From Candidatus Aenigmatarchaeota archaeon (GTDB lineage: Archaea; Aenigmatarchaeota; Aenigmatarchaeia; JACPZZ01): a DNA stretch of 64,000 bases. Numbering within the stretch: the stretch's first letter is position 1; every line of letters begins with the position of its first letter. The stretch lies in contig JACPAF010000001.1 in NCBI GenBank assembly GCA_016180965.1, positions 223,513 through 287,512 of the forward strand, in the 5' to 3' direction. The notes beneath the pieces are model-generated. The model searched no databases. It was not told the DNA's origin and saw only the letters and a list, made by a program, of their open reading frames with translations. Below, piece by piece: positions 4,771 through 62,853 of the stretch. A program made the translations under genes and the position numbers.

Positions 4771-4814
4771 TTGTTTCAAAAAAGCTCAACCAAAAGAGAA
4801 TGGAGGGGAATTGT

Positions 4815-5931
4815 ATGTCAATATTGGAGTCGGTTTTGAGTCGTGGGGCAACAGGCCACGGAAATGCGGAATCCGGAGTTACTATGAAAAACTTCGATTA
4901 CGAAAAGATAACTGAGCAGGAATTTGGCTTTAGCATGAAACGCGCCAGGATCGTTGTCGTTGGATGCGGTGGAGGCGGAACAAACTCTATCAACCGATTG
5001 GCAGAAATGGGCGTTGAAGGCGCAACCACAGTTGCGTTGAACACAGATGCAAAGCATTTGGCGGTCATAAAATCTGACAAGAAGATTTTGATTGGAAAAG
5101 AACTAACGCGCGGTTTGGGAGCAGGCGGTTACCCAGAGATCGGAAAGAAAGCGGCAGAGGAAAGCCGCACACAATTGAAAGAGTCGCTCACCGGCGCAGA
5201 CTTAGTTTTCTTAACAGCAGGGATGGGCGGAGGGACAGGAACAGGTTCCGCGCCTGTGGTTTCAGAGATAGCGAAGGAGATGGGTGCGATCGTTATCGGA
5301 GTTGTAACGATGCCTTTCAAGATTGAAGGCGCACGTATCGTAAAAGCTGAGAACGGTCTCGGAAAATTACGCGAAGCTTGCGACACAGTCATTGTCATTG
5401 AAAACGACAAGCTGTTAGAATTTGCAGGCGACTTGCCAATACAACAGGCTTTCGCTGTTGCAGACGAATTGATTGCGGGAATGGTCAAAGGCATAACCGA
5501 GACAATAACATTGCCGTCGTTGGTCAATTTGGACTACGCTGACGTGAAGGCGATAATGCATTCCGGCGGCGTTGCGGCGATTGGACTTGGATTTTCAAAC
5601 AGCTCTGACCGTGCTCGCGATGCGGTTACAAAAGCATTGCCCGTTGTTAGAAGTTGATTACCAAGGCGCTTCAGGCGCGTTGATACACATAACAGGCGGG
5701 CCAGACCTCAAATTGTCCGAAGTTAACCAGATAGGCGCAATAGTTTCGTCGCATTTGGATCCTTCGGCACAGGTTATCTGGGGCGCGCGAGTACAACCGG
5801 ATTTCCATGGCAAGGTCCAGGTAATAACAATAATAACAGGTGTGAACAGCCCGTACATACTCGGCCAGGTGCACAGAGAGGCTTCCCCGGCCTTGGGAAT
5901 AAGCGAGCTTGGCATAGACAAGATTGCGTAA
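4815..5931 (+). CDS. ftsZ: cell division GTPase FtsZ with apparent +1 frameshift at the C3 run 5640-5642
   Basis: GGAGGGGAA Shine-Dalgarno before ATG 4815. Tubulin signature GGGTGTG and T7-loop region run in frame 0 up to 5657. The C-terminal PLLEVDYQGASGALIHITGG...VITIITG continues in frame +1 (track ORF 5572-5931). Removing one C restores ...AVTKALPLLEVDYQ.... Confidence 0.85.
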
Positions 5932-8337: not shown

Positions 8338-9132
8338 ATGGTCCAACAGGATAAGCTCGGCGTCGCGGAGAATTCTATAACCAGAGGATTGACTTTTCTT
8401 AGGAAAGGGGTTTATGACGAGGTTAGTGGAAATTCCAGGAAAGCTGTTAGAAATCCAGCGGACGTTTTCGGAGCCGCAACAAACCAGTATGTAACTGCTT
8501 ATAAAGCGTTAAATGAAAGCAAACCGGATAAAGATGCGCTGCAGCCTGTAATAGACAGGTACGACAAGGCGATGGCGGATCTGGATCATCTGAAAACAGA
8601 ATTAATTGATTATGCCAAAGAGGCTGCAAACAAAATTGGCCAAAGATCCATACTTTATGTTTCGGGCGTGGAAAAGCTGGTTGTCCAAGAGGAACGTGGC
8701 AGAAAAATTTTAGGCGTCCCTTATGCGCGCAGGCCCAAGGCTGCAAAGGTAAAGGACGCGATAGATAATGCCAGAGGCCAGATAGGCAACATCGTGATAA
8801 CCACAGAGGTCAAAGAAAACGGCCATGAAGTCGGCAGCGGAAAATCTTATATTTTACACTTGCGCGGAGATCTGGCATCGATCAGAAACAATCTCAAACG
8901 GGCTGCGCTGCTCGGCGATCCCGAGGAGAAATACATTACAGGAGTCGAGGGTGATGTGGCACAGGATATGAAATCCATTGACGATTTGGACAAATACCAC
9001 AGGAACCTTTTGTCGGAGAGGTTTAAAGCTGAACAAAAGAAAGCCGAGGATAAAAGGCTGGCGAAACTTGAAAAAGAAAGGCAGCGCGACCTTCGCAAAA
9101 ACCTTAAAGAACTAAGAAAGAGGAAATGGTAA
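8338..9132 (+). CDS. paralog family protein 1 (unknown function; basic C-terminal tail)
   Basis: 264 aa. Shares the core YVSGVEKLVVQEERGRKILGVPYARRPKAA with the next gene. Lys/Arg-rich C-terminus. Confidence 0.6.
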   Translation: MVQQDKLGVAENSITRGLTFLRKGVYDEVSGNSRKAVRNPADVFGAATNQYVTAYKALNESKPDKDALQPVIDRYDKAMADLDHLKTELIDYAKEAANKIGQRSILYVSGVEKLVVQEERGRKILGVPYARRPKAAKVKDAIDNARGQIGNIVITTEVKENGHEVGSGKSYILHLRGDLASIRNNLKRAALLGDPEEKYITGVEGDVAQDMKSIDDLDKYHRNLLSERFKAEQKKAEDKRLAKLEKERQRDLRKNLKELRKRKW

Positions 9133-9824
9133 TTTTTATGAGTATTGAACTTGCAGAGGCGGACGCGAGGCGCGGTCTGGAATATATCAGGAAGGGTAAA
9201 AGCGGAAAATTGAAGGATCCTGAGTACGTTTTACAGAAGGCTGCAGAGGCTTATACGAAAGCTTCTAATGGTTTGGTTGAACCTGCGGCAGATGCGTCGA
9301 AAGATGAGAAAAAAACCTACACCAATGTTCGTTCACTGGTTGATATTTTACAAAGTGAGCTGGCTTCTTATGCAAAAGGGAAAGTTGGCGGGCTGACAAA
9401 AGAGGCTGGCGGATATGTTTCTGGAATAACAAAATTGGTTAAACAAGAGGAACGCGGTAAACGGATTTTAGGGGTTCCATACGCGAAAAGGCCGTCCGTT
9501 GCTTATGTTTCCGGAAAGATCGAGCAGGGTAAAACCTATGTAACCCAAGCTTTGGGAAAGGTTGGGGCAATGAGAAAAATTTTGGAAAATGAGGCGTTGT
9601 TGAAACCGGCCGAGAAAAACATGCTAAATGAAGCAAAGGGTGCGCTTGAGCAGGTCAATACCAAGCTTGGTGAATTGGAAACGCAGAACCAGAACGCGGG
9701 CAAGGCGGTTAAACCAAAAACCAAGAAGAAAGATGATGGCAAGGGCGGATTGCATTTACCACACGTAAAATTACCCAGTTTTAAGCGAAAACCCAAGGGT
9801 TGGCAGTCTCGCGGTGGGTTTTAA
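9126..9824 (+). CDS. paralog family protein 2 (unknown function; ends ...SRGGF)
   Basis: YVSGITKLVKQEERGKRILGVPYAKRPSVA core. Start overlaps the stop of protein 1 (ATGGTAA); alternative ATG at 9138. Confidence 0.6.
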   Translation: MVIFMSIELAEADARRGLEYIRKGKSGKLKDPEYVLQKAAEAYTKASNGLVEPAADASKDEKKTYTNVRSLVDILQSELASYAKGKVGGLTKEAGGYVSGITKLVKQEERGKRILGVPYAKRPSVAYVSGKIEQGKTYVTQALGKVGAMRKILENEALLKPAEKNMLNEAKGALEQVNTKLGELETQNQNAGKAVKPKTKKKDDGKGGLHLPHVKLPSFKRKPKGWQSRGGF

Positions 9825-9869
9825 ATACTTATCTGGTTTTAAAATTAGGATAGGAGAGGTTGATTGAAA

Positions 9870-10550
9870 ATGGCTGTAGATTATAGTAAGATTGTCGATA
9901 GTTTGAATAACGCGCTTGATAGGCTTGGTAGTTTAGGTTATGTTCCGGGCAAGGCGCCAAAAACGAAGATCGCAAGCGATCCTGTTAGGATGCTTCTTAG
10001 TGGCGTTGACGCATACACTTCTGCAAAAACAGATTTGGGCGCGCTTCCAGTGGTTGGAGTAGCAGGTGCGAAAAAAGCTGACGTTGACAGGTACAACGCT
10101 GCAGTTCAGGTTTTGGACACTGTCGGAGCGGGTTTAAGATCCGCATTCAAGGATTATGTACAGGCTGTGGGCCAAGGATTGGAAGGAAATGCAGCTTCGT
10201 TGAAAAGACAGGTTGAAAGCGAGCGCAAAGGTCCTATGAGGATTTTACCGAGATCGTCTTCATACCTTGTTAGCAACGGTTTAGACGATGCTAAGACAGC
10301 TGTCGGTTACGCGAAAGCTGAAGTTGCGGCTGTAAGAACAGCTTTTGAAGGTGCGCCTGACCTGTTGAAACCACAAGACAAAACTTACATTTCAGAGCTT
10401 GAAAAAAGATTGGGTAACATTGCGTCGTCTTTGACAAAAGAGGAAACAAGACACAACGACAAGGTCGACAGGGAAGCTGTGAAAGCGGACAGGAAAGCCT
10501 GGGAAAAGCTTTTGAAAGGAAAGCCAAAGGGCAGCCGCGGCGGTTTCTAA
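9870..10550 (+). CDS. paralog family protein 3 (unknown function; ends ...KGSRGGF)
   Basis: ESERKGPMRILPRSSSY core, ELEKRLGNIASSL, C-terminal KGKPKGSRGGF. TAGGAGAGG Shine-Dalgarno before ATG 9870. Confidence 0.6.
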   Translation: MAVDYSKIVDSLNNALDRLGSLGYVPGKAPKTKIASDPVRMLLSGVDAYTSAKTDLGALPVVGVAGAKKADVDRYNAAVQVLDTVGAGLRSAFKDYVQAVGQGLEGNAASLKRQVESERKGPMRILPRSSSYLVSNGLDDAKTAVGYAKAEVAAVRTAFEGAPDLLKPQDKTYISELEKRLGNIASSLTKEETRHNDKVDREAVKADRKAWEKLLKGKPKGSRGGF

Positions 10551-10581
10551 TTTTTTAATTAACCGGGCGCAATCGCCAACT

Positions 10582-10613
10582 GAAGCATACCGTATATTGT
10601 ATCGGTATGCTTC
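10582..10613 (+). repeat. hairpin GAAGCATACCG-tatattgtat-CGGTATGCTTC followed by TAGCTG and a T-rich tract; terminator-like
   Basis: Perfect 11 bp stem 32 nt after the stop of paralog 3. TTTTATTTTTATT follows at 10634-10646. Confidence 0.55.
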
Positions 10614-10714
10614 TAGCTGTTTGCGCCCAAGTTTTATTTTTATTCCAATTAGTTGTTTTTCTATAATTTTTTAGAAATGAAAATTAATTTAACTCTGAGA
10701 CGCCTTTGTTAATT

Positions 10715-11194
10715 ATGGTAAAAGAAAATTACGAGAGAAAATTACAGGCATTGAATGGTGCGGTTGATTCTGCAAAAAGAAGCGTTGACCAGGGCAGATA
10801 CGCAGCTGCTATAGGTTATGTTGACCAGGCAAGAGGCATGATGAAAGGCGGTAATTACAGGGGTCTTCTGACGGAAAAACACGCGATAGTAAACGGCGAG
10901 TTAAATCTAATAATGAGGCACGCACGCGACCAGGTCCGCGACCGCCTGGAGCAAGGCTATAAAACCGTTGACAATGAGCTGGCTAGAATTTCAAAGGGCG
11001 GTATGCCAACACCCAAGGCCAGAAGAACTTTGGCGGAAATGAGCGGATATGTTGACAGCCTCACAGGAACAGATATGCCCAAATCGATTTCCAAAGAATT
11101 TACGCCTGACAAAACGCGGGTGGACAAATTAAAAAAAGAGCTTGAGGCTTTGGCAACGTCGAAAGGCGGAAAAATAGACTGGGCGAAACCATGA
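10715..11194 (+). CDS. possible divergent member 4 of the paralog family (unknown function)
   Basis: 160 aa, helical and basic, similar architecture but only weak similarity to proteins 1-3. Confidence 0.4.
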   Translation: MVKENYERKLQALNGAVDSAKRSVDQGRYAAAIGYVDQARGMMKGGNYRGLLTEKHAIVNGELNLIMRHARDQVRDRLEQGYKTVDNELARISKGGMPTPKARRTLAEMSGYVDSLTGTDMPKSISKEFTPDKTRVDKLKKELEALATSKGGKIDWAKP

Positions 11195-11225: not shown

Positions 11226-11975
11226 TTATTTTTCTATTTTTTCCATCAAAGCCTCCATTTTTTCAACGAACCGTGTCGCCTTTTCAACCATCTCGTCGAT
11301 TTTTTCCGGCGTGACGAGCTTCAGTTCACCGTGTTCCAGTTTTTTCCACGTCTTGATGACGTCTTCGTAATATTTTACGTATTCCGGCGACAATTTCCTT
11401 TTTCGTACGAAATGTATTCGCAACTGGTCAGGGACATTTTTTGGCGTCGGCGGCGACACGCCGATGCTTAACAGCGGAGCTTGCGCCGCGTCCACGACTG
11501 CGGACGACAATGCGTCCATTATTGAGATTGTGTGGATACGTTCTATGCGCAACAAACGCAAAGGCGATTGCTGTATCAAGGATTTCATAGCCTCTTTCGT
11601 TCCGGGCACGCGGCCTTCGAGCAATAATTTTTTCAGCGGTAAAAAGAATCCTGACGGGTCGTATATCGGAATGCCGTCGCGTATTTCCGTGAACGTGACC
11701 GGAGAACCGTGCCGGATGAGTTCCCAATAATCCGATAGTTTGTAAAATATCAAGTCAGTTTCGCCGCGCAGTTTTAGCAGCTTGGAGATTTTTTGCGCTT
11801 CCAGTTTTATTTCGTTGGTTGTGATTGAGTCAACTTGGTTGGTGTCGTCGAGAAGGAATATCAACGTGTCCTCTTTTCCCTCTTCGGAGGACGAAGTCAT
11901 CCAGATAGACTTTATTATGGTGGGATATTTTTTCGTTAATTTATCGATCAGTGATTTTGTTTTTTTCGTGTTCAT
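11226..11975 (-). CDS. nucleotidyltransferase-fold protein, catalytically degenerate paralog of the upstream gene
   Basis: Aligns along its length with 11972-13120 (IYDPSGFF..LLEGR..PLRLLR..HGELK). The hG[GS]...DhD motif is replaced by MTSSSEEGKEDTLIF. Start overlaps the upstream gene's stop (ATGA). Confidence 0.55.
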   Translation of the reverse strand: MNTKKTKSLIDKLTKKYPTIIKSIWMTSSSEEGKEDTLIFLLDDTNQVDSITTNEIKLEAQKISKLLKLRGETDLIFYKLSDYWELIRHGSPVTFTEIRDGIPIYDPSGFFLPLKKLLLEGRVPGTKEAMKSLIQQSPLRLLRIERIHTISIMDALSSAVVDAAQAPLLSIGVSPPTPKNVPDQLRIHFVRKRKLSPEYVKYYEDVIKTWKKLEHGELKLVTPEKIDEMVEKATRFVEKMEALMEKIEK

Positions 11976-13120
11976 TTTTTAGCCTCTTTCAACAACGATT
12001 CCAAATTCTTGGCATACAGGCGCGACGTGTAAACGTCTTTTTCGGTCACTTCGTTTAATTTGTCATTGTCGGATGCGTGCTTCATCAATTTTATTTTTTT
12101 CAGCAGTTCCAAATAGCCTTTCGACACCAGGCCCGTGTTAACCAACTCTTTTTCAACAAAATGCAGGATGTTTTTATCATTTACTCGTATTCCACGTTTT
12201 TTCAGTATGTTCCTGCAGGCTGTGAACGCCACATCATTGGATTCTTCGATCATTTCCTTTTTCTTTTCTTTTTCCAGCATGGAAAAAATCGTGTCCATCA
12301 TGTAGATGAAATCTTTTGCTTTCACAATCCAGGAATCGATTTCTTTCGCTGTTATTTTTGTCAATTCCCCATGGTCGATTTTTCTTGTCACTGCGTAAAA
12401 TTCATCCACCAAGTCGGCGTAAAATCCTGGAAGTATTTTTTTTGCGACGAAATTTTTTCGCAGCGCCGCGCCGACGTTTTTTGCGGACGGCGGCGCAATT
12501 CCATAGAACATCAATACCGCCTGCCCGGCTTCGACCATTGCGAAAAGCAAATCTGCGGTTATGTCTTCCAGGAATATTTTCCTGACGTCTTCCAGGCGCA
12601 GAGGCGCGCGCTGCATCAACATTTGCGACCTTTCAAATGTGCCGCCCATGCGACCTTCTTTTAATAATCTGCTTAACGGCTCTACATAACCTGATGGATC
12701 ATACACGGGCATCGCGTCGCGCATTGATGTGAATACCCACGGCTCGCCTGAGCGCAGCAAATCCCACCAATCTGTTAACCTGCGAACGGGCTGGAAATGT
12801 ATATTGATTTTTGTTTTTTCCTTTACAGCATCGTTTATTTCGGATATTTTTGCGCTCATTGCGGATAATTCAGCAGCGGATATATCCGTCGTGGCATCGT
12901 CGACCAAAGTCATTACGTCGATGTCCGATGTCGGTTTTGCTTCGCCGCGGGCGAATGAACCGTATAACCAGATAACCTTTATCTTATTTCCGTATATTGA
13001 AAGTATTTTAGAACAAGCCTCTTTGATGGCGTCGATAGCGGAATATGCCATAATCAATAATGAATGACGGGATTTTAATACCTGAGCAAGAAACCCGCGG
13101 GCATCGCCTGATTGAAGCAT
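11972..13120 (-). CDS. Pol-beta-superfamily minimal nucleotidyltransferase with conserved helical C-terminal domain
   Basis: VIWLYGSFARGEAKPTSDIDVMTLVDD is a canonical GS...DxD NTase motif. 382 aa. The N-terminal 23 codons overlap the hairpin at 13114-13136, so the true start may be ATG 13051. Confidence 0.6.
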   Translation of the reverse strand: MLQSGDARGFLAQVLKSRHSLLIMAYSAIDAIKEACSKILSIYGNKIKVIWLYGSFARGEAKPTSDIDVMTLVDDATTDISAAELSAMSAKISEINDAVKEKTKINIHFQPVRRLTDWWDLLRSGEPWVFTSMRDAMPVYDPSGYVEPLSRLLKEGRMGGTFERSQMLMQRAPLRLEDVRKIFLEDITADLLFAMVEAGQAVLMFYGIAPPSAKNVGAALRKNFVAKKILPGFYADLVDEFYAVTRKIDHGELTKITAKEIDSWIVKAKDFIYMMDTIFSMLEKEKKKEMIEESNDVAFTACRNILKKRGIRVNDKNILHFVEKELVNTGLVSKGYLELLKKIKLMKHASDNDKLNEVTEKDVYTSRLYAKNLESLLKEAKK

Positions 13121-13136
13121 ATCAAAGGTATGCTTC
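13114..13136 (+). repeat. hairpin GAAGCATA-tcaaagg-TATGCTTC followed by TAACTCC; family member
   Basis: 8 bp perfect stem. Overlaps the annotated 5' end of the minus-strand NTase ORF. Confidence 0.4.
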
Positions 13137-13140
13137 TAAC

Positions 13141-14523
13141 TCCTTACCGCCCGCCAGATGAATTGCACACAGTTACTATTATTCCATGTTAACTATATTT
13201 TTCTATAGGAACCTCACATAAAGGGTGTTTTAAGTGCACATTCGAAAAGTATTGATTCATGAAAGAATCGAAAAATAATATCAGAATGTACCGTTATAGA
13301 ATATACCCTTCTCAAGAACAACGTAAAAGGCTTGATTCTCAACTCGCATCATGTAAAGAATTATACAACCTGCTTCTTCAAAAATGTAAAGAAGATTACA
13401 AGGAAAAAAGCATTTCCGTAAACCGAAAAATGCTCTACAAACTTGCCAAACAATTCACAGACAATGATGAACGTTATTCAGACGTACATTCCCAGGTCCT
13501 CCAAAACGTAGCTGACAGACTAGTAAAATCTTACAAAAACTATTTTAGGCGTATTAAAGAAAAGAAATCCGGCAAGAAGATAAAAGTCGGCTTTCCTAGA
13601 TTCAAAAAATTCTATTCAAGCATAACCTATCCGCAGAGCGGGTTTAATCTAGCCGCGAATCGTCTTTTTGCTTCGAGGATAGGCAATATTCCCATCGTAA
13701 CCGAAAGATTGCCTCAAGGAAAGACAAAAACACTAACAATCAGAAGAAAACCGTCGGGCAAGTGGTTTGTTTTTTTCAGTTCGTTTGTTGATACTCCTGA
13801 GACCGAAAACACAGTTAAATACAACAAAATCGGCATAGACATGGGCATTGAAAACTTCGCAACTTTATCGGACGGCACAACAATAGAAAATCCGAGATTC
13901 CTAAGAAAATCGGAAGACACGCTAGCAAAATACCAGCGCAGAGTGTCCAGAAAAGCGAAAGGTTCTAACAGAATAAAAGCAAAAATAAAAGTTGCGAGAA
14001 TACACGAAAAAATAACCAACCAAAGAACAGATTTCCTTCACAAAACAAGTAAAATGCTGACGGAAAAATACAGCTTCATAGCTGTTGAAAAACTAAATGT
14101 CAGTAACATGGTAAAGAACCATAATCTAGCGAAAAGCATATCCGATGCTTCGTGGAACCAATTCACTCGGATGATTGGCTACAAGGCTTCAAGTGCTGGT
14201 TGCCAACTCGTTTTTGTGAATCCACGAAACACATCGCAAATATGCAGCGGATGCGGAAACACAGTAAAGAAAGAATTAAGCGACAGGTGGCACGAATGCG
14301 ATTTATGCGGTTTGTCGCTGCACAGAGACCACAATTCCGCATTGGAAATATTAGACAAAGCCACCGACGGACTGTCGGGAAGTAACGCCTTTGGAGACAG
14401 TGTAAGACCTTCTGTAAAGAAGGTCGTGGTCGATGAATCAGGAACTACACGTGTTGAGATAGACGCTGGAAACCCAGCACTTTAGTGCGGGGAGGATGTC
14501 ATTAATGTGCAAGCTTTTATCCG
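13141..14523 (+). mobile_element. IS200/IS605-family element carrying tnpB only (IS1341-like); ends not defined
   Basis: Single tnpB gene without tnpA, flanked by about 120 nt upstream and about 40 nt downstream of non-coding DNA. Boundaries were placed at the flanking genes. Confidence 0.4.
13259..14485 (+). CDS. tnpB: TnpB (IS605 OrfB, RuvC-like RNA-guided endonuclease)
   Basis: 408 aa. MYRYRIYPSQEQ N-terminus, RuvC-I GIDMGIENFATL, RuvC-II IAVEKLNVSNM, zinc finger CSGCG...CDLCG, RuvC-III RDHNSALEI. Confidence 0.9.
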   Translation: MKESKNNIRMYRYRIYPSQEQRKRLDSQLASCKELYNLLLQKCKEDYKEKSISVNRKMLYKLAKQFTDNDERYSDVHSQVLQNVADRLVKSYKNYFRRIKEKKSGKKIKVGFPRFKKFYSSITYPQSGFNLAANRLFASRIGNIPIVTERLPQGKTKTLTIRRKPSGKWFVFFSSFVDTPETENTVKYNKIGIDMGIENFATLSDGTTIENPRFLRKSEDTLAKYQRRVSRKAKGSNRIKAKIKVARIHEKITNQRTDFLHKTSKMLTEKYSFIAVEKLNVSNMVKNHNLAKSISDASWNQFTRMIGYKASSAGCQLVFVNPRNTSQICSGCGNTVKKELSDRWHECDLCGLSLHRDHNSALEILDKATDGLSGSNAFGDSVRPSVKKVVVDESGTTRVEIDAGNPAL

Positions 14524-14556: not shown

Positions 14557-15168
14557 ATGGTAACTCCCAAAAGCGCTGCAGATAAATACGAACAGATAGA
14601 CCGACTGACGCGCACTGGAGTTTCTGTTCTAGGAAAACAGATGAGTCCGACAGCTGCGATAACATCTGCGGGAGATTCTTACACACAGGCCAATACACTT
14701 TTTGGCGGCCTCACAGCCCCGAAAAGAGGAAAAGACCAGGTTGCAGGATTGAAGGATGCTATTGTAGGTTATGCGCGAACAGCGATGCGTACACGGGTTG
14801 AAGATGTCTACAAAAAAATGGGCGATGCAAGTTATACGATTGACCGAAGAGGTTCCGAGTTACGAGGTTCCGGCATTTTAAGTTTCAAACCCGGCGCCGG
14901 CCCATTCAAAGCCTTAGCAATTGGGCGACCTTCGCCTGAAAAGGCATTGCGTTCAGTCGGCGATGCGCAAACATATGCAACTGAATCCAAAGGTTATGTT
15001 AAAGATGTTTTCAGCGCTTTCAACGCTACAGGTCTGACAGAAACCGGAGACAGGGAATTCAAAAAGGATCTCGAAAAAAGACTGGCCGATGCTGAAAAGA
15101 AGATCGGTGAAAAGAAGGCAGACCTTTGGGGAGCTGAAAGACGGAAATCGATTCGCAGGGGATATTGA
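14557..15168 (+). CDS. paralog family protein 5 (unknown function; ends ...IRRGY)
   Basis: RRGSELRGSGILSFKPG core and DLEKRLADAEKKI match paralog 3 (ESERKGPMRILPRSS, ELEKRLGNIASSL). The TTG at 14524 is in frame with ATG 14557. Confidence 0.55.
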   Translation: MVTPKSAADKYEQIDRLTRTGVSVLGKQMSPTAAITSAGDSYTQANTLFGGLTAPKRGKDQVAGLKDAIVGYARTAMRTRVEDVYKKMGDASYTIDRRGSELRGSGILSFKPGAGPFKALAIGRPSPEKALRSVGDAQTYATESKGYVKDVFSAFNATGLTETGDREFKKDLEKRLADAEKKIGEKKADLWGAERRKSIRRGY

Positions 15169-15189: not shown

Positions 15190-16107
15190 ATGCGGGATGA
15201 AATAATTAAAAAGGACGATTCGATGAACACACAAAACAAGAATAATCTGGTTTTCTTGGCGATATTTTCTGTGTTTATGCTGGTTCCCATGCTGGCTGCT
15301 GCCCAATCGAGCACAGGCGCGGTGAGCCAATCACTGATGAAGATGATCGGCGTGCCGGATTCAATTGCAACAGGCCCGCCGCAGACAATAATATTTTACG
15401 TGGTTTTGCCTGCGATTTTGATGTTCATAATAATGTATGGAATATTGGATGAGATCAAGCTTTTCTACAGGGGCGGGATCAATTTCGCGATCGCTGTTTT
15501 AGCAACGCTGATAACGATACCGTCGGGGTTGTTAGGCCAGGTTATCATAGGCATATACGGAGGCGGGCTGGCGACCCTTGCGATCATTACCGGTATTGCG
15601 ATTCTTCCTGCATTCATATCAACTTTCGGTTCCAGGATGGGGCTGCCTAATAATATTCTTGAGTTGCTGACAGCTGTTGTTTACGGTTTCGTAATGTACA
15701 TAGTTTTCGGTTTCCTTGTCGACGGGCCGGCCGGCGGAACGGGCGGAGTGTTAAAGAATTTCTCGTGGGTCAGATGGGTATTCGTAATAGGCGTTCCGAT
15801 ACTCGTTGCGTGGAGAGGCGCAATGAACAGGAATATTGGCCTTAGAATGGGATCGGAACTTGCGGTTGAAAGCGCGGAGATAAAAGCAGCGGAACAGGCG
15901 GTCACAAGATGCCAGAGGGCGTTGCGTGATTTGGCAATGGTGACCAATGCTACGGGTGCCGGACCCTCCACAGGCATAGACCCGGCCACTTACAGCAATG
16001 CCCTGAATAATGTGCAGATCATGTGCAGTTCCAAATATCCGATACCTTATTTGCAAACGCTTACACGCGCCCAAATAAACGCTTTGGCCACCAATCACAA
16101 GAGATAA
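15190..16107 (+). CDS. membrane protein family A member 1 (signal peptide ...LAAAQS, polytopic)
   Basis: 305 aa. N-terminal hydrophobic segment ending MLVPMLAAAQSSTG, then 5-6 TM helices. Confidence 0.5.
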   Translation: MRDEIIKKDDSMNTQNKNNLVFLAIFSVFMLVPMLAAAQSSTGAVSQSLMKMIGVPDSIATGPPQTIIFYVVLPAILMFIIMYGILDEIKLFYRGGINFAIAVLATLITIPSGLLGQVIIGIYGGGLATLAIITGIAILPAFISTFGSRMGLPNNILELLTAVVYGFVMYIVFGFLVDGPAGGTGGVLKNFSWVRWVFVIGVPILVAWRGAMNRNIGLRMGSELAVESAEIKAAEQAVTRCQRALRDLAMVTNATGAGPSTGIDPATYSNALNNVQIMCSSKYPIPYLQTLTRAQINALATNHKR

Positions 16108-16123
16108 TTCTTTTTTTAGTCCA

Positions 16124-16951
16124 TTGCAATATTGTTTTATGGGCAAATTTTTATTCGGGTTTATTCTGGCGCTGCTTGCGATATTTCCGTTTGCAGCTGC
16201 GCAATCCACATTGTCCGACGGAACGATCAAGTTCTGGACGACTTGGTTTTATGTGCCGGCGAAATACCTGGTTTCGTGGCAGTCCATAGTCATTTTTGCC
16301 GTCGTTCCTGTTTTGATTTCAATTTTTTTCGTGCATGAAATATGGAAGGATATAGGATTTTTCCATTCGGGCGCAGTCAATTTCTGGATACCTCTTCTTG
16401 TGGTCTATATGATGCTGCGAAACGGTTTTTGGGATTATGTCGAGTTGTTCGTGTCGAACGTGCAGATGATTCCGGCATTGGCTTTGTCGATGCTAGCCAT
16501 GCAGATTACGGGCAAGCTTAGGTCTAAAATAACTTCGTTTGGCTATTCCGGCCCGTTGGGCGGTGTATTGGCATACGCATTAGATGCGATAGGAATGGGC
16601 ATATTTTTCGGCGGATTGGGTTTTGTTGTCAGCAAGGGGCATTTAGGACCAATTGTTTACACCTTGTTTTTCGTTGGGGCTGGGGTGGGCATTTTACTAA
16701 TCTGGTGGGATTCGCATGGAAAGGCGAAGCAGGCCAAGCTGTCCAACTTGCTGGAACAATATGACGTTATAACCAAACAGATGGAACCGTTGGAGAAAAA
16801 ACTTGTCGAGCTGGAAAAGAAGAAACAAGCTGCAATCGCTGCTAAAAGGAATTTTGAAGCGTTGGACATAACTCAGGAAATGGTTGCAGTTAACAGGCAG
16901 ATAGAAGGTTTGCGTGCTGAGAGAGAGGCAATTTCCGCGGGCGCGGCATAA
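16124..16951 (+). CDS. membrane protein family A member 2 (signal peptide ...FAAAQS, polytopic, C-terminal coiled coil)
   Basis: AIFPFAAAQSTLSDG parallels member 1. C-terminal LEKKLVELEKKKQAAIAAKR coiled coil. Confidence 0.5.
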   Translation: MQYCFMGKFLFGFILALLAIFPFAAAQSTLSDGTIKFWTTWFYVPAKYLVSWQSIVIFAVVPVLISIFFVHEIWKDIGFFHSGAVNFWIPLLVVYMMLRNGFWDYVELFVSNVQMIPALALSMLAMQITGKLRSKITSFGYSGPLGGVLAYALDAIGMGIFFGGLGFVVSKGHLGPIVYTLFFVGAGVGILLIWWDSHGKAKQAKLSNLLEQYDVITKQMEPLEKKLVELEKKKQAAIAAKRNFEALDITQEMVAVNRQIEGLRAEREAISAGAA

Positions 16952-16987
16952 AAGCAAGATTTAAGATTTGGAGGAGTAACTAATACT

Positions 16988-17584
16988 ATGTTTTCGGCTG
17001 CGTTCCAGTCTCCGCCTTCCGGTTCTGTGGCATCGTCAATATTCAAAGTGCTTGATAACTTGCAAGCTCAACAACTGGTCGTGCCGTTCCTTCTAACTTT
17101 CGTGATAGCGTATGGCGTATTGGATACGATACACATATTCAGAAAAAACAGCATTAACGCGATAATTTCATTGGCAATATCATTTTTTGCGATATTCTAC
17201 GGGCCTTACGGGGCGATGGGTAAGTTTTTGACACAACTGTACGGCACTGGCGCAGTCGCTATTGTTGGTTTAGTCATGTTCATGATAATCCTCGGCGTGT
17301 TTAGTTTGGGCGGCAACCATATGCCCGGCGTAGGCATGTTCCAAAGGCTTTTCGGCATGTCCGGCGGGGTTGTGGGCGGTATCGTTATCGTAGTTGTTTT
17401 CATATTTTTGCTTGCTTCGGGCTGGTTCGAAAATGTCGGAATAAGATTGGATCCGGATACGACTGCGTTGATGATTATTATTCTGGTAATTATTGCGTTC
17501 ATTGCGATAGTTGCGCGACCGGACAGAACCAGGACATGGTGGCATCATATGTTCCCGCCCGGCGCGCAAGGCGGACAGTGGTAG
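16988..17584 (+). CDS. membrane protein family B member 1
   Basis: LVVPFLLTFVIAYGVLDTIHIF motif shared with the next three genes. Four TM helices. Confidence 0.5.
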   Translation: MFSAAFQSPPSGSVASSIFKVLDNLQAQQLVVPFLLTFVIAYGVLDTIHIFRKNSINAIISLAISFFAIFYGPYGAMGKFLTQLYGTGAVAIVGLVMFMIILGVFSLGGNHMPGVGMFQRLFGMSGGVVGGIVIVVVFIFLLASGWFENVGIRLDPDTTALMIIILVIIAFIAIVARPDRTRTWWHHMFPPGAQGGQW

Positions 17585-17659
17585 GAATTGCAAAACTTGC
17601 AAAGTTTGATCAAAAGTGAGTTTGTCAAGGAATAAAAGCTCGAAAGAAGAATTGATATA

Positions 17660-18151
17660 ATGGTTTCGGATATTTTTACGCCTTTGGTCGGAAATTTAAA
17701 CAACCTCGGTTTTTACAAATTCGTCCTTCCGTGGCTGTTTACGTTGGCCGTTGTATATGGTGTGCTTTTGAAAGTCAAAGTTTTTGGAACTGACCAGCAA
17801 AAATCGTTGACCGCTGTCATAGCTATTGTCGCGGCGTTTTTCGTTGTTAATTACACGCCCGCTGGGTTTGCGTTAGACGGTTTTTTCACTCAAGTCTTTG
17901 GTGTGGGCATTTTGATACTCACCGGCATTTTTGTCGTACTTCTGGTTATGGGTTTAGTCGGGTTAAAAGGCGAGGATATATTCAAGGCTGAGAACCTGAA
18001 AACTGGCGGCGGCATGGCTGTTGTATTATTAGTAGCATTCATAATTTTCCTGTTCTTTACGATCGGCGGAATACATATAGCTTCGGATCAGTTATCTCTG
18101 ATAGCCGTGATGATATTCATGATTGTCGCGCTGGTTTTCATAGCTAAATGA
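17660..18151 (+). CDS. membrane protein family B member 2
   Basis: LGFYKFVLPWLFTLAVVYGVLLKVKVF. Confidence 0.5.
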   Translation: MVSDIFTPLVGNLNNLGFYKFVLPWLFTLAVVYGVLLKVKVFGTDQQKSLTAVIAIVAAFFVVNYTPAGFALDGFFTQVFGVGILILTGIFVVLLVMGLVGLKGEDIFKAENLKTGGGMAVVLLVAFIIFLFFTIGGIHIASDQLSLIAVMIFMIVALVFIAK

Positions 18152-18215
18152 CCGTACGGGATGAAAAAAAAACAAAATCGATAATTTGTATAAATAAAAC
18201 TATGGAAGAATTTCA

Positions 18216-18761
18216 ATGGCAACTTTTGATTTCATCGCACTGCAAAACACGTTAAAAGCAATGGGCTTTTACGACTTTGTTTTGCCTTGGCTGTTAGCGT
18301 TTGCGATCGTGTTCGGCATTTTACAAACAGTTAAAATTTTTAAGAAAGGTGATGCGTCAAACACGTCCGTCGACGCTGTTGTTTCGCTAGTTGTTGCGTT
18401 CTACCTGACAATATTCACTCCTTATTCCGGATTCTTGTCGTCGTTCTTCAGTAAATTATTCGGAAGCTCAATAATAATGCTGTCGAGCGTTCTCGTACTG
18501 TTAATGTTCGTGGGAATATTCGGGTTTAACATAAAAGATCTTCTGTCAAAGAAGGACGGTGAGAAGACAGAGCTCACGCCGATTGGTATAGCAGGTTTAA
18601 TAGGCGCGTTTATCGTCGCAGCAATACTTTTCATCAATGCCACTTCGGGCGTGTTTTCTTTCGGCGGTTCGGACATTTTAAACGGCGATACGCTGACAGT
18701 TCTTTTGTTTTTAGGAATAATCGGCGCGGTTATATGGTTTGTTGTAAAGGGCGCGAAATAA
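18216..18761 (+). CDS. membrane protein family B member 3
   Basis: MATFDFIALQNTLKAMGFYDFVLPWLLAFAIVFGILQTVKIFKKG. About 75% identical to member 4. Confidence 0.55.
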   Translation: MATFDFIALQNTLKAMGFYDFVLPWLLAFAIVFGILQTVKIFKKGDASNTSVDAVVSLVVAFYLTIFTPYSGFLSSFFSKLFGSSIIMLSSVLVLLMFVGIFGFNIKDLLSKKDGEKTELTPIGIAGLIGAFIVAAILFINATSGVFSFGGSDILNGDTLTVLLFLGIIGAVIWFVVKGAK

Positions 18762-18794
18762 GGTTTTAAATACGTCGGAGAATAATCGTAGATA

Positions 18795-19388
18795 ATGGCG
18801 ACGTTTGATTTTATTGGTTTGCAAAACACCCTACGTTCGATGGGTTTCTACGATTTTGTTTTGCCGTGGCTGTTGGCTTTTTCAATTGTTTTCGGCATTT
18901 TGCAGACGGTCATGATATTCAAGAAAGGCGCGGACAACACAAAATCAAACACGTCTGTTGATGCTGTCATAGCGCTTGCCGTTGCTTTTTACCTGACAAT
19001 ATTCACGCCTTATTCCGGATTCTTGTCGTCTTTTTTCAGCAAACTATTCGGCAGTTCAATCATAGTTTTATCAGGAATTTTAATGCTGTTAATGTTCGTG
19101 GGCATATTCGGATTTAATTCCCAAGAATTGTTCGGTGGAACTAAATCTAAAGCGGCGATAACCATAGTCGCGTTGATACTTGCCGGTTTGTTTTTGATAA
19201 ATGCAAGCTCCGGCGTGTTCTCGTTCGGCAACGGCCAGTTAGTTAACGGCGAAACGCTGACGGTTATCGCGTTTTTCGGAATGATCGCTGCGATAATATG
19301 GTTTGTGGTAAATGACGGGAAAACAAAAGAGAAAGACGAGGATGACAAGACTACGAAAATAGACCCAAAAACGGGCAAGCCTATATAG
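18795..19388 (+). CDS. membrane protein family B member 4 (recent tandem duplicate of member 3)
   Basis: MATFDFIGLQNTLRSMGFYDFVLPWLLAFSIVFGILQTVMIFKKG. Confidence 0.55.
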   Translation: MATFDFIGLQNTLRSMGFYDFVLPWLLAFSIVFGILQTVMIFKKGADNTKSNTSVDAVIALAVAFYLTIFTPYSGFLSSFFSKLFGSSIIVLSGILMLLMFVGIFGFNSQELFGGTKSKAAITIVALILAGLFLINASSGVFSFGNGQLVNGETLTVIAFFGMIAAIIWFVVNDGKTKEKDEDDKTTKIDPKTGKPI

Positions 19389-19915: not shown

Positions 19916-20596
19916 TTACTGCTTGTTTATTTTCTGCAAAGAATCGTTTACAGCGCGCACGGATTCTATCATTGACGGCAATGTTTCTTTGAACGCTTTT
20001 TCAATCGATCCTATCCGTGCGTCTATTTGGTCGAGGTTGTCATGATATTGGTCTAATTTACCTTCGATGCCGCCCGACGCAGACGTACCGGATTCTTTTA
20101 ACGTCCGTATTTGAAGATCGACATCATGCAACCTCTCGTTAACGGAATCGAATCGTTTTTCTATCGCGTCTATCCTGAATTCCAATTGTTTCCATTTCTC
20201 TTCTACGACAGCTTCGACGACTTCTTCGATCTCTGTCGTGGACGGCGATGAATTTAATGCCACTGGTATTTCGGCCATCTCGGGCGTTGAAGGCTCCCAT
20301 TCTGTCCCGGCTTGCATTTGCGGTTGTTGCTGTTCGACTGGAAATTCAAAATCGTTTTGCTGGGCCTGCGGCTGTTCGGGAACAGCGAATCCCATGGGCT
20401 GCATTTCCTGTTGCGGCTGAGTTTGCATTTGTTGTTGGGGCTGCTTTGGCTGCGAAACAGTTTCTTTAACAGCGGTCATGACAGCTGTCCGTTCGTTGTT
20501 CATTGATTGGGAGAAATCGGAATCCTGCGCTGCGGGGCGCGGCATGTTTACAGGCATTGATTGTTTCTCTTCAGACTTCTTCTTGAACAGCCACAT
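19916..20596 (-). CDS. Gln/Pro-rich low-complexity protein with C-terminal coiled coil
   Basis: N-terminal QPKQPQQQMQTQPQQEMQP repeats. C-terminal about 100 aa are heptad-like (LEFRIDAIEKRFDSVNERLHDVDLQIRTLKE). Confidence 0.45.
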   Translation of the reverse strand: MWLFKKKSEEKQSMPVNMPRPAAQDSDFSQSMNNERTAVMTAVKETVSQPKQPQQQMQTQPQQEMQPMGFAVPEQPQAQQNDFEFPVEQQQPQMQAGTEWEPSTPEMAEIPVALNSSPSTTEIEEVVEAVVEEKWKQLEFRIDAIEKRFDSVNERLHDVDLQIRTLKESGTSASGGIEGKLDQYHDNLDQIDARIGSIEKAFKETLPSMIESVRAVNDSLQKINKQ

Positions 20597-20662
20597 AATG
20601 ATTGCCTAATTAATTTTGATTAGCGCTTAATAAATGCTTTCGCAGGCCGACTAAGCTAATTA

Positions 20663-21253
20663 ATGCACGCTGACAGTTTATATTTTGTGGCCGATTTACT
20701 CAGTTATTTTTCAATTATTTTTTTCGATTGGCTTAACCTTTTTACCGCGCCTTTTGCCAAGGGCGATTCCGATGTCCTGTGGATAATTGTACCTATATAC
20801 CTAAGCTGGCTGTTGGCCGAATATTACCAGGAAAAAGCCGGCACAAGCATAGGAAATGCGATAAGCAACGGTTTCATCGGTTTGTGGGTAGGGATAGATT
20901 GGGCGCGCCGTTTGGCGGGCGAGTTCGCGTTAACTGCGGTTTTTGCAGGCAAGGCTTCCATAACCGTGTCCATGTTCATTTACGGCTCTCTGGTAATCTA
21001 TAACGGCATGAAAGGGAGGAAACTGGCGATGCTGATCGGGCGGGTTAAGGAAGTCAGTTATTTGATGATAGTTTTTTCGCCCATAGTTTACGGGTTAGTT
21101 CCGTTGACTTTTGACACAATCATAGGCATCGTGCTGTTTTTCCCCCTGGTTTACGGAATAACAGGAATTGCAGATAAGATATTGCCGTCGCCGCCAGAGG
21201 AAGCGAAGCCTGCTTTGAAAAATGAGACGCAGCCAAACACAGAGAAACAATGA
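20663..21253 (+). CDS. hypothetical polytopic membrane protein
   Basis: 196 aa, 5-6 TM helices. No GxGD or other protease signature found. Confidence 0.4.
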   Translation: MHADSLYFVADLLSYFSIIFFDWLNLFTAPFAKGDSDVLWIIVPIYLSWLLAEYYQEKAGTSIGNAISNGFIGLWVGIDWARRLAGEFALTAVFAGKASITVSMFIYGSLVIYNGMKGRKLAMLIGRVKEVSYLMIVFSPIVYGLVPLTFDTIIGIVLFFPLVYGITGIADKILPSPPEEAKPALKNETQPNTEKQ

Positions 21254-21277
21254 AAACGCGCAAAATTGAGTTTGATC

Positions 21278-21676
21278 CTAGGCCTGTTTTTTGAAATCTT
21301 CAAGCATTTTCCTGACTTCCGAGATTGTTACGAATTGTGATTTAATCGGGTTGATCAGGTCTATGAAACCCTGTATTTCGCGAAGCTCTGTTTTTGTCGA
21401 TGCGCGTTCCATTTGTTTTGATAATTTCCGGGTGTCGTCTTCGATCTTAGACACGCGGTTTGCCAGTTCGTCTATTTTTGCGTTCAATTTGTCAGTCGAC
21501 AGTTTTGCCTGTTTGAACTGCTCAACCACGCTTTGGTCTATGTTCGATAACGTCGATTCCGAACCGCTCATCTTTTGTTCTACCAATCGCAACCGTTTAG
21601 AGTTATCATTGAAACGGCGTATCAACTCCCCGATTACTGCTTGCACGTTGGCTGGTTTCTTGTCGAAGACGGCCAT
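21278..21676 (-). CDS. coiled-coil protein, divergently transcribed from the pilus ATPase
   Basis: 132 aa, heptad-rich (KLNAKIDELANRVSKIEDDTRKLSKQMERAS). Confidence 0.45.
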   Translation of the reverse strand: MAVFDKKPANVQAVIGELIRRFNDNSKRLRLVEQKMSGSESTLSNIDQSVVEQFKQAKLSTDKLNAKIDELANRVSKIEDDTRKLSKQMERASTKTELREIQGFIDLINPIKSQFVTISEVRKMLEDFKKQA

Positions 21677-23984: not shown

Positions 23985-23988
23985 TAAT

Positions 23989-29153: not shown

Positions 29154-29202
29154 CTATTAACATCTTTTATATTTTTCAAAATTCATATTTAACTTGTTTT
29201 GA

Positions 29203-29631: not shown

Positions 29632-29654
29632 TTTATTTTACCGAAGATGAAATT

Positions 29655-35915: not shown

Positions 35916-35919
35916 TCTT

Positions 35920-58678: not shown

Positions 58679-58717
58679 AAATGTTTATAAGTATCTGGCC
58701 GACAATTAATAATTAAG

Positions 58718-62851: not shown

Positions 62852-62853
62852 TT

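What the first reader, a model, noticed from the sequence alone, without database searches (positions are those of the whole stretch)
8338..11194. Tandem family of five paralogous proteins with basic RGGF/RRGY C-terminal tails and no recognisable domain
Genes at 8338, 9126, 9870 and 14557, plus possibly 10715, encode 160-264 aa helical proteins. Three share a conserved core (Y[VL]SG[VI]xKLVxQEERGxxILGVPYAxRP; more divergently ESERKGPMRILPRSS and SELRGSGILSFKPG) and an (E/D)LEKRL helix. Their Lys/Arg-rich tails end in SRGGF, GSRGGF or IRRGY. I cannot match them to a known family. Tandem expansion with RGG-like basic tails is compatible with a nucleic-acid-binding, structural or scaffold role, and the cluster has been invaded by an IS element. 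This may be a novel lineage-specific system.
Basis: seen in the sequence. Interest (0 to 1): 0.75.

Follow-up and report, generated by a model that had tools for sequence, protein, structure and literature searches.

The report
Orphan basic helical protein family, Aenigmarchaeota
Four neighbouring genes in this DPANN archaeon encode copies of a fast-evolving, strongly basic, all-helical protein found only in Aenigmarchaeota; it matches no known family, always lies beside a pilus-type membrane machine, and its function is unknown.

Summary
The genes are real, but the family has four members here, not five. P1 (8338), P2 (9138), P3 (9870) and P5 (14557) are true homologues: a profile built without any P5-type sequence still finds P5 at E=1e-9, and hhalign gives 99.7%. 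The gene at 10715 (P4) is a separate, co-conserved small helical protein. An exhaustive HMMER search of 1.84 billion representatives finds only 29 clusters, and every named one is from Aenigmarchaeota. Pfam, NCBIfam, PHROGs, PADLOC and PDB sequence searches give nothing. The AlphaFold model (pLDDT 82) is an elongated five-helix bundle with only generic structural neighbours. The proteins are soluble, Cys-free and have pI 9.6-9.8. Their best-conserved element is a basic loop, ERGRKILGVPYAKRPS. The family-wide tail is a polybasic amphipathic segment that usually ends in an aromatic or hydrophobic residue, not an RGG box. Eight other Aenigmarchaeota contigs keep the same order: Dph5, P copies (2-4), P4, two nucleotidyltransferase-like genes, P5, six membrane proteins, then a type-IV-pilus ATPase and platform. 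The TnpB IS is unique to this genome. Function is inferred only. My preferred reading is a polyanion-binding cytoplasmic adaptor for the neighbouring envelope machine (about 0.3). Nucleic-acid binding is a close rival. An ESCRT-III/PspA relationship is not supported.

The parts
8338..9132 (+). P1, family member of 264 aa. It carries a ~23-residue insertion after the conserved loop and ends ..LRKRKW.
   Evidence: ORF. E=2e-23 to P2. 85% identical orthologue in L001 with dN/dS 0.15. TATA-like TTTAAATA about 31 nt upstream.
9126..9824 (+). P2, family member. The annotated start is 9138 (228 aa); it abuts or overlaps the P1 stop. Ends ..WQSRGGF.
   Evidence: 100% identity to HYT71_01295. AF2 model with pLDDT 81.9 and pTM 0.70.
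9870..10550 (+). P3, family member of 226 aa, ending ..GSRGGF. It has its own promoter-like element and a Shine-Dalgarno-like GGAGAGG.
   Evidence: E=8e-10 to P2.. The promoter-like repeat D2 is shared with the region upstream of P1.
10582..10613 (.). Perfect palindrome GAAGCATACCG..CGGTATGCTTC lying 20 nt 3' of the T-run that directly follows the P3 stop. It looks like a terminator and belongs to a four-copy palindrome family in the window.
10715..11194 (+). P4, a separate co-conserved small basic helical protein of 159 aa, ending ..IDWAKP. It is not demonstrably a paralogue.
   Evidence: hhalign 46%. AF2 single-sequence model with pLDDT 79. Found in window, L001, L006, L007, L008 and L015; split across two reading frames in L014; absent in L010.
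11226..11975 (-). MNT1-like gene of 249 aa, a paralogue of the next gene. It is a conserved resident of the cluster.
   Evidence: no Pfam hit. 88% identical in L006. Present in all related loci.
11972..13051 (-). MNT2, a Pol-beta/KNTase-type nucleotidyltransferase of 359 aa. The listed ORF running to 13120 carries a spurious N-terminal extension.
   Evidence: Pfam NTP_transf_2/Polbeta. PDB kanamycin nucleotidyltransferase at E=5e-6. Start inferred from orthologues.
13259..14485 (+). tnpB (IS200/IS605-family OrfB), an insertion unique to this genome. It lies between MNT2 and the P5 promoter; the element ends somewhere within 13052-14508.
   Evidence: Pfam OrfB_IS605, Cas12f1-like_TNB and HTH_OrfB_IS605. 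Absent from the six related contigs that span the MNT2/P5 junction. The P5 promoter box is intact to its right.
14508..14522 (+). Conserved promoter-like box AAGCTTTTATCCGT upstream of P5.
   Evidence: The identical string lies upstream of the P5-type gene in L008.
14557..15168 (+). P5, the divergent family member of 203 aa, ending ..SIRRGY. It lies 21 nt upstream of Mem1 on the same strand.
   Evidence: E=1e-9 with an independent profile; hhalign 99.7%..
15190..19388 (+). Mem1-Mem6, six paralogous multi-pass membrane proteins directly downstream of P5. This is the context with which the family is proposed to work.
   Evidence: hydropathy. (62-92% identity among Aenigmarchaeota). (the same array lies next to the ATPase in distant contigs).
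19916..21676 (-). CC1 (19916-20596, acidic, pI 4.6, Q/P-rich plus coiled coil) and CC2 (21278-21676, coiled coil), with a small membrane-protein gene between them on the + strand.
   Evidence: Equivalents occur in L012 and L013.
21711..26061 (+). Type-IV-pilus-type ATPase (757 aa, T2SSE) and TadC/FlaJ-like platform protein (690 aa). Genes with pilin-like N-termini follow, up to about 36.3 kb.
   Evidence: Pfam T2SSE at E=6e-19; T2SSF below threshold at E=2e-4. Pilin-like N-termini are read from the translations.

Best explanation
Shown:
- P1, P2, P3 and P5 are paralogues of one undescribed protein family confined, as far as sampled, to Aenigmarchaeota. P4 is a distinct small helical partner gene.
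- Members are soluble, with no transmembrane segment or signal peptide. They contain no Cys and are strongly basic (pI 9.6-9.8), whereas the soluble housekeeping neighbours ThrRS, FtsZ and Dph5 have pI about 5.7-6.2.
- P2 is predicted as an elongated five-helix bundle (helices 2-26, 32-49, 59-110, 125-155, 161-193).
- The best-conserved element is a basic loop or mini-hairpin, ERGRKILGVPYAKRPS, between helices 3 and 4.
- The C-terminus is a polybasic, amphipathic tail that usually ends in an aromatic or hydrophobic residue.

Inferred:
- They are non-enzymatic structural or adaptor subunits. They would use the basic loop and tail to hold on to a polyanionic surface at the cytoplasmic side of the envelope, such as anionic lipid head groups or an acidic partner like the pI-4.6 coiled-coil protein CC1.
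- They would act together with the adjacent six-membrane-protein and type-IV-pilus-like machine.
- Tandem duplication (2-4 copies per genome) would provide interchangeable or hetero-oligomeric building blocks.
- The weak constraint on helix surfaces would explain the fast divergence.
For: - Homology and family size.
- Taxonomic restriction.
- Real genes under purifying selection.
- Fold and disordered tail.
- Soluble, no hydrophobic segment.
- Charge.
- The loop is the most conserved region, at 2.45 bits against about 1.7-1.8 bits in the helices.
- Every family copy detected in the contigs I fetched (window plus eight related Aenigmarchaeota contigs) lies in this one locus, between Dph5 and the Mem1-6/CC1/CC2/ATPase block. 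Six further contig lengths coincide with contigs carrying Mem proteins.
- Where present, the P5-type copy sits directly upstream of Mem1 on the same strand, 21-118 nt away in four loci and overlapping the listed Mem1 ORF in L006, behind a conserved promoter box.
- The Mem/CC/ATPase block is itself a conserved module in distant lineages. That makes it a plausible machine for accessory subunits to attach to.
- Precedent: lineage-specific cytoplasmic alpha-helical and coiled-coil proteins of unknown role are linked to particular archaeal type IV pilus clades (PMC4858521).
Against: - The whole 30-kb region, from ThrRS to the pilins, is syntenic in these closely related genomes, so adjacency is weak evidence of a shared function.
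- Distant contigs L012 and L013 have the Mem/CC/ATPase module without any P-family gene. The family is therefore not a core part of that machine.
- Two Aenigmarchaeota genomes (L010, L014) have no copy next to Mem1.
- The tails have a high helical hydrophobic moment but are far too hydrophilic (mean Eisenberg H of -0.4 to -1.05) to resemble inserting membrane-targeting helices.
- High pI together with a basic hairpin fits nucleic-acid binding equally well.
- There are no expression, localisation or interaction data.
Confidence: 0.3

Rival explanations
1. Nucleic-acid-binding proteins: a lineage-specific chromatin protein, RNA chaperone or ribonucleoprotein component. The basic hairpin loop and polybasic tail would contact phosphate backbones. 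They may be functionally tied to the two nucleotidyltransferase-like genes embedded in the cluster.
For: - All members have pI 9.3-10.1 apart from one full-length member (P0010, pI 7.9) and two fragments; the window members also have a net-positive core, while ThrRS, FtsZ and Dph5 nearby have pI about 5.7-6.2.
- The conserved R/K-rich loop contains Pro and is predicted as a short beta bridge.
- The tails are highly charged rather than hydrophobic.
- The P genes always flank the MNT-like pair. This pair resembles the DPANN-wide MNT-HEPN cluster said to sit in housekeeping contexts (PMC6393860).
- The translation genes ThrRS and Dph5 are neighbours.
Against: - No known nucleic-acid-binding domain or fold was detected.
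- There is no true RGG or RG repeat region.
- Divergence is very fast: 22-45% identity where flanking genes keep 46-97%. Copy number also varies. Both are unusual for core chromatin or ribosome-associated proteins.
- All copies are tied to one envelope-related locus.
Confidence: 0.25
2. Cargo or effector proteins exported or handed over by the neighbouring type-IV-pilus-like machine of this presumed episymbiont. They would evolve quickly because they meet host targets.
For: - Rapid divergence and lineage-specific expansion next to a secretion-type ATPase and platform.
- DPANN archaea are generally host-dependent (background knowledge; PMC6393860).
Against: - No signal peptide, class III signal or hydrophobic segment.
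- dN/dS of 0.10-0.15 between close relatives, like the housekeeping gene Dph5 at 0.147. There is no sign of positive selection at that scale.
- Archaeal type IV pilus systems are not known to export folded leaderless proteins (background knowledge).
Confidence: 0.07
3. Divergent ESCRT-III or PspA/Vipp1-type membrane-remodelling proteins.
For: - They are about 200-260 aa, all-helical, and present as several paralogues.
- The P1 tail (..DLRKNLKELRKRKW) loosely resembles an LxxxLxxL(K/R) MIM1-like pattern. This is my reading of the sequences against a consensus recalled from memory, so it is a lead only.
Against: - No Snf7 or PspA_IM30 Pfam match appears even at E<=1 for the five window proteins (P1-P5), or at E<=0.1 for 27 family members.
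- The helix pattern of 25/18/52/31/33 residues lacks the long alpha1-alpha2 hairpin.
- The C-terminus is basic, not acidic.
- No Vps4/CdvC-like AAA+ gene was found among the window ORFs I scanned with Pfam, which cover most of those of at least 150 aa.
Confidence: 0.04
4. Remnant of a virus, plasmid or other mobile element, for example a scaffold or nucleoprotein gene set, or part of a defence island built around the MNT-like genes.
For: - A TnpB IS sits in the cluster.
- The MNT2 nucleotidyltransferase domain matches the PADLOC candidate families PDC-S09 and PDC-M05A.
- The genes are orphans and evolve fast.
Against: - The position and order are the same between housekeeping genes in eight related contigs.
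- GC content matches the rest of the window.
- No PHROG or PADLOC hit for any P protein.
- No BFVD structural match at E<=0.001.
- No relative in IMG/VR.
- The IS is present in this genome only.
Confidence: 0.03

Closest known systems
Lineage-specific cytoplasmic alpha-helical or coiled-coil proteins linked to archaeal type IV pilus loci (arCOG05610, arCOG07479, arCOG07564; Makarova, Koonin & Albers 2016, PMC4858521)
   Same: They are small, intracellular and all-helical, with no enzymatic domain. Each is restricted to one lineage and encoded beside a type IV pilus ATPase/TadC locus. Their function is unknown, and they are presumed to be structural or regulatory accessories.
   Different: No sequence relationship could be tested because arCOG profiles were not available here. 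The present family is tandemly expanded, strongly basic, and separated from the ATPase by a six-gene membrane-protein array. Distant lineages carry the same module without it.
Tandem three-helix-bundle scaffolds (spectrin or plakin repeats) and the PhoU/CorA-type cytoplasmic helical bundles
   Different: Sequence identity is 5-16%. Foldseek gives E>=0.012 and TM<=0.39. No Pfam Spectrin or PhoU match was found. No internal sequence repeat is detectable (hhalign 1.3%). The resemblance is therefore at the level of generic helical bundles.
ESCRT-III / PspA / Vipp1 superfamily
   Same: Similar size, all-helical, several paralogues, and a possible membrane-proximal role.
   Different: Every feature I could test failed: the profile, the fold neighbours, the charge polarity and the partner ATPase. 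See the membership table.
RGG/RG-box RNA-binding tails
   Same: P2 and P3 end in ..SRGGF within a Lys/Arg-rich disordered tail.
   Different: There is only a single RGG. It is absent from P1, P5 and most family members. The family-wide feature is a polybasic amphipathic segment that usually ends in an aromatic or hydrophobic residue.

Membership tests
ESCRT-III (Snf7) / PspA-Vipp1 (IM30) | Match to the Pfam Snf7 (PF03357) or PspA_IM30 (PF04012) profile | tested here: not met
   No such hit at E<=1 for the five window proteins P1-P5, nor at E<=0.1 for 27 family members.
ESCRT-III (Snf7) / PspA-Vipp1 (IM30) | Long alpha1-alpha2 helical hairpin fold, structurally similar to solved ESCRT-III/PspA/Vipp1 chains | tested here: not met
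ESCRT-III (Snf7) / PspA-Vipp1 (IM30) | Basic N-terminal half with an acidic C-terminal autoinhibitory region, and a partner AAA+ ATPase (Vps4/CdvC) or PspB/C genes nearby | tested here: not met
   The last 40 residues carry a net charge of +5 to +11. No such partner was found among the window ORFs scanned with Pfam, which cover most ORFs of at least 150 aa in the 64 kb.
RGG/RG-box nucleic-acid-binding region | Several closely spaced RGG/RG repeats in a Gly/Arg-rich low-complexity stretch | tested here: not met
   There is one RGG each in P2 and P3 and none in P1 or P5. It is not conserved across the 29 clusters.
Archaeal type IV pilus-locus-associated cytoplasmic helical proteins (arCOG05610/07479/07564) | Cytoplasmic, all-alpha, no enzymatic domain | tested here: met
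   AF2 all-helical model. No transmembrane or signal segment. No domain hits.
Archaeal type IV pilus-locus-associated cytoplasmic helical proteins (arCOG05610/07479/07564) | Specific genomic linkage to a type IV pilus ATPase/TadC locus | tested here: inconclusive
   The linkage holds in the window and in every related contig long enough to show it. However, the entire region is syntenic, and the module exists without the family in L012 and L013.
Archaeal type IV pilus-locus-associated cytoplasmic helical proteins (arCOG05610/07479/07564) | Sequence membership in those arCOGs | not testable with these tools
   No arCOG profiles or member sequences were available.
Spectrin repeat / PhoU-type helical bundle | Profile match or significant structural match to the repeat | tested here: inconclusive
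MinD/FtsA-type C-terminal membrane-targeting amphipathic helix | Terminal amphipathic helix of about 8-15 aa with a hydrophobic face and near-neutral mean hydrophobicity | tested here: inconclusive
   The best 14-mers in many tails reach muH 0.6-0.77, above the protein's own 90th percentile. Mean H is -0.4 to -1.05, against about -0.2 to 0 for yardstick sequences recalled from memory.
IS200/IS605-family TnpB (for the inserted element only) | OrfB_IS605 RuvC-like core, the Zn-finger TNB domain and the N-terminal HTH | tested here: met
   PF01385 at E=5e-31, PF07282 at E=9e-22 and PF12323 at E=3e-8.

The most novel reading that the evidence does not exclude
The P proteins (with P4) form a phylum-specific cytoplasmic platform beneath a DPANN type-IV-pilus-like envelope machine. 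One version is a basic lattice that anchors the motor, comparable in role to the still-unidentified polar cap of euryarchaeal archaella. Another is a nucleic-acid-handling layer that receives host DNA or RNA imported through the Mem1-6/pilus apparatus in an organism that depends on a host for nucleotides.
Probability: 0.07. Interest if true: 0.8.

Novelty: new variant of a known kind. Interest (0 to 1): 0.35.

Why it matters
DPANN archaea carry a large share of unannotated genes, and the way they attach to and exploit hosts is poorly understood. This family is one of the few expanded, phylum-specific gene sets sitting next to their pilus-type envelope machinery. If it proves to be a cytoplasmic scaffold or a nucleic-acid-handling layer of that machine, it would give a concrete entry point into Aenigmarchaeota cell biology. 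If it is only a low-constraint helical protein with a housekeeping role, its main value is as a defined new protein family (29 clusters) with a clean synteny marker for the phylum.

Tried and rejected
- Sequence libraries. Pfam, NCBIfam, PHROGs and PADLOC scans of all five proteins gave only sub-threshold noise. So did a Pfam scan of 27 family members.
- PDB by sequence. Two family profiles and the P4 profile returned only coiled-coil noise, with best E=0.006.
- Word-indexed homologue searches were almost blind to this family, giving 2 and 4 hits. Only the exhaustive HMMER run revealed the 29 clusters.
- Pattern-based locus searches found nothing in IMG/VR or JGI metagenomes. Three alignments were too divergent to derive a pattern.
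- P4 as a fifth paralogue was rejected. BLASTP and hhalign are not significant, although its predicted helix order looks similar.
- Internal duplication of the bundle was rejected (hhalign 1.3%).
- PIP-box and HbYX readings of the aromatic C-terminus were considered from memory. I dropped them because the spacing and position of the aromatics do not fit; neither was formally tested.
- The IS element has no relative in the plasmid collection.
- A literature search for Aenigmarchaeota cell-biology data found nothing relevant.
Full report
**Source and setting.** The window is chromosomal DNA of a Candidatus Aenigmarchaeota (DPANN) metagenome-assembled genome. P2 is 100% identical to NCBI protein HYT71_01295. 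GC content is even, at 41-48%. The neighbours are housekeeping genes: an archaeal-type ThrRS, FtsZ, DUF357, MazE/PIN and diphthine synthase upstream, and SRP54, FtsY, Pus10, aIF-2B and others further downstream.

**Checking the observation.** The five ORFs exist at the stated places. All quoted motifs and C-terminal endings are present.

Pairwise comparison gives P1-P2 at E=2e-23, P2-P3 at E=8e-10 and P3-P5 at E=1e-3. P4 has nothing better than E about 1. To test P5 independently I built a profile from 22 non-P5-type sequences. It finds the window's P5 at E=1e-9, scaled to 1.8 billion sequences, and hhalign between the two subfamilies gives 99.7% probability over 202 columns. A five-sequence P4 alignment against the family gives only 46% probability, in a shifted register.

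So there are four paralogues plus one separate, co-conserved small helical protein. P4's single-sequence AF2 model (pLDDT 79) has a similar order of helices (2-28, 32-47, 56-96, 103-120, 136-152). That leaves a very remote relationship possible but unproven.

Against the closest relative (contig L001), P1-P4 have dN/dS of 0.08-0.15, like the neighbouring Dph5 at 0.147. These are functional genes. P5 could not be tested this way because L001 ends before it.

**Family size and range.**
- Word-indexed searches found only 2-4 relatives.
- An exhaustive HMMER profile search of 1.84 billion cluster representatives found 29 clusters at E<=1e-3, of which 21 are at E<=1e-10.
- Every member that carries a source name is from Aenigmarchaeota/Aenigmatarchaeota MAGs.
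- No relative was found in IMG/VR or, by motif scan, in JGI metagenomes.
- Pfam, NCBIfam, PHROGs, PADLOC and PDB sequence searches give nothing significant for the window proteins, for 27 members scanned one by one, or for family profiles.

**Properties of the proteins.**
- The P2 model is confident (pLDDT 81.9, pTM 0.70). It has helices at 2-26, 32-49, 59-110, 125-155 and 161-193, a short beta bridge in the 111-124 loop, and a disordered tail at 195-232.
- Foldseek finds no PDB or viral (BFVD) match at E<=0.001, and TM-scores are at most 0.39 (PDB) and 0.51 (BFVD).
- From the helix lengths and these neighbours I infer two three-helix lobes that share the long central helix. I did not inspect coordinates.
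- The proteins have no hydrophobic segment (maximum 19-residue Kyte-Doolittle mean of 0.72 or less, against more than 2.5 in the Mem proteins).
- They contain no Cys and have pI 9.6-9.8. ThrRS, FtsZ and Dph5 have pI 5.7-6.2.
- The 111-124 loop (ERGRKILGVPYAKRPS in P1 and P2; longer and hairpin-like in P5-types) is the most conserved region, at 2.45 bits per column against about 1.7-1.8 in the helices.
- Across the family the C-terminus is typically ..DKxWEKEQKRHLxxIKKKKWF or a variant. It is polybasic and amphipathic (muH up to 0.77) and usually ends in W, F, Y, L, I or V, but it is very hydrophilic. The SRGGF endings of P2 and P3 are local variants, not an RGG box.

**Genomic anatomy.** Eight related Aenigmarchaeota contigs (L001, L006, L007, L008, L010, L014, L015 and the short L002) show the same order: ThrRS, FtsZ, DUF357, MazE/PIN, a 152-aa membrane protein, Dph5, [P copies, P4], then two nucleotidyltransferase-like genes on the opposite strand, then [P5-type, Mem1-Mem6], two coiled-coil genes on the opposite strand, and then the T2SSE-type ATPase (about 757 aa), a TadC-like platform protein (about 690 aa) and pilin-like genes.

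A family HMM run over all ORFs of these loci counts the following:

| Locus | P-family copies | P4 |
|---|---|---|
| window | 4 | present |
| L006 | 4 | present |
| L010 | 4, none in the P5 position | absent |
| L014 | 3, none in the P5 position | split across two reading frames |
| L008 | 2 | present |
| L015 | 2 | present |
| L012, L013 | 0 | absent |

- P4 and the P5-type copy are present together in five loci and missing or degraded together in two.
- Contig lengths show that six more family members share contigs with Mem proteins.
- The tnpB gene is absent from this position in the six related contigs that span the MNT2/P5 junction. It landed just left of a promoter-like box, AAGCTTTTATCCGT, that is conserved upstream of P5-type genes.
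- P1 and P3 are each preceded by a similar TTTAAATA-containing element. P2 abuts P1. A T-run directly follows the P3 stop, with a perfect palindrome 20 nt further downstream. P5 ends 21 nt before Mem1.

**Evolutionary rate.** Between the window and L006, flanking genes keep 46-97% identity: FtsZ 96.5%, MNT1 88%, ThrRS 81%, Dph5 69%, Mem1-6 46-82% and CC1 82%. By contrast, P1-P5 keep only 22-45% and P4 25%. The cluster is a fast-evolving island inside a conserved neighbourhood.

**What the neighbours say.** Mem1-6 are paralogous multi-pass membrane proteins, 62-92% identical among Aenigmarchaeota. Remote relatives on a JGI contig (L012) and a TARA contig (L013) again form tandem arrays beside CC1-like and CC2-like genes and a ~760-residue T2SSE-type ATPase (762 aa in L013; 1247 aa with an intein in L012), but without any P-family gene. 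The Mem/CC/ATPase block is therefore a wider, uncharacterised pilus-type module, and the P family is an Aenigmarchaeota-specific addition next to it.

Makarova et al. (2016) describe lineage-specific cytoplasmic alpha-helical and coiled-coil proteins of unknown role linked to particular archaeal type IV pilus clades (PMC4858521). Makarova et al. (2019) list a DPANN-wide MNT-HEPN cluster in 'housekeeping context' and an uncharacterised alpha-helical DPANN family, NEQ484 (PMC6393860). I could not test either sequence relationship.

**Interpretation.** The data establish a new orphan family of soluble, basic, helical-bundle proteins. They do not establish what the proteins do.
- I favour a non-enzymatic adaptor or scaffold that binds a polyanionic surface at the cytoplasmic face of the envelope and works with the adjacent Mem/pilus machine (confidence about 0.3). 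The reasons are that all copies sit at this one locus, that P5 appears operonic with Mem1, and that such accessories have precedent.
- Nucleic-acid binding (about 0.25) explains the charge, the basic hairpin and the embedded nucleotidyltransferase genes equally well. It fits the fast divergence and the locus restriction less well.
- Exported effector (about 0.07), ESCRT-III/PspA-like (about 0.04) and mobile-element or defence cargo (about 0.03) are disfavoured by the tests listed under rival explanations and the membership table.

**Verdict.** It is a real, previously undescribed protein family of modest interest. The fold class is generic and the function remains inferential.

Noticed in passing
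window 10582-10613, 13114-13136, 40118-40149, 40224-40254: There are four copies of a palindrome, GAAGCATA-N(7-16)-TATGCTTC, where shuffles predict none. One lies 20 nt 3' of the T-run that directly follows the P3 stop. One lies between the true MNT2 start and tnpB and may be the left-end hairpin of the IS200/IS605-type element. Two lie in the intergenic region near 40.2 kb.
   Followed up: partly
window 4719-5931: ftsZ appears frameshifted. ORF 4719-5657 ends ..KALPVVRS*, and the conserved C-terminal part (..PLLEVDYQGASG..) continues in another frame (5572-5931). Related genomes have one 373-392 aa gene. This is either an assembly error or a pseudogene.
   Followed up: partly
window 15190-19388; L012 8331-10642; L013 9441-11115: Tandem arrays of paralogous multi-pass membrane proteins share an N-terminal motif (GFYxFVLPWLLxFxIVFGILxxxKIF). 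They always lie beside two coiled-coil genes and a T2SSE-type ATPase of about 760 aa (longer in L012, where it carries an intein), including in distant lineages. This is an uncharacterised pilus-associated module with no Pfam family.
   Followed up: partly
window 11226-13051 (- strand): Two paralogous nucleotidyltransferase-like genes (249 and 359 aa) are 82-88% identical across genomes and always embedded between P4 and P5. They probably correspond to the DPANN-wide 'MNT fused to HEPN' cluster of Makarova et al. 2019. The listed ORF running to 13120 has a spurious 23-aa extension.
   Followed up: partly
L006 14072-15040 (P0023): The P5-type protein of this genome is 322 aa because its N-terminal helical unit is duplicated (two HMM stretches). 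This suggests a modular, repeat-like bundle.
   Followed up: no
L010 and L014 compared with window, L006, L007, L008, L015: P4 and the P5-type copy co-occur in five loci and are both missing or degraded in two. In L014, P4 is split over two reading frames at 10660-11024. This hints at a P4-P5 partnership.
   Followed up: partly
window 58223-63729: A second pilus-type gene set is present: two proteins with the archaeal Pilin_N domain (58223, 59189) and two TadB/C-like T2SSF genes on the minus strand (61982-63729).
   Followed up: no
window 28625-29999 and 35616-36315: Several small Cys-rich proteins have pilin-like hydrophobic N-termini. They include a near-duplicate pair ending ..KGCGCPG (35616-35915 and 35863-36315).
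   Followed up: no
L012 2890-6633 and 19778-20642: In this distant contig, both the pilus-type ATPase and a RadA/Rad51-like gene carry inteins with LAGLIDADG domains.
   Followed up: no
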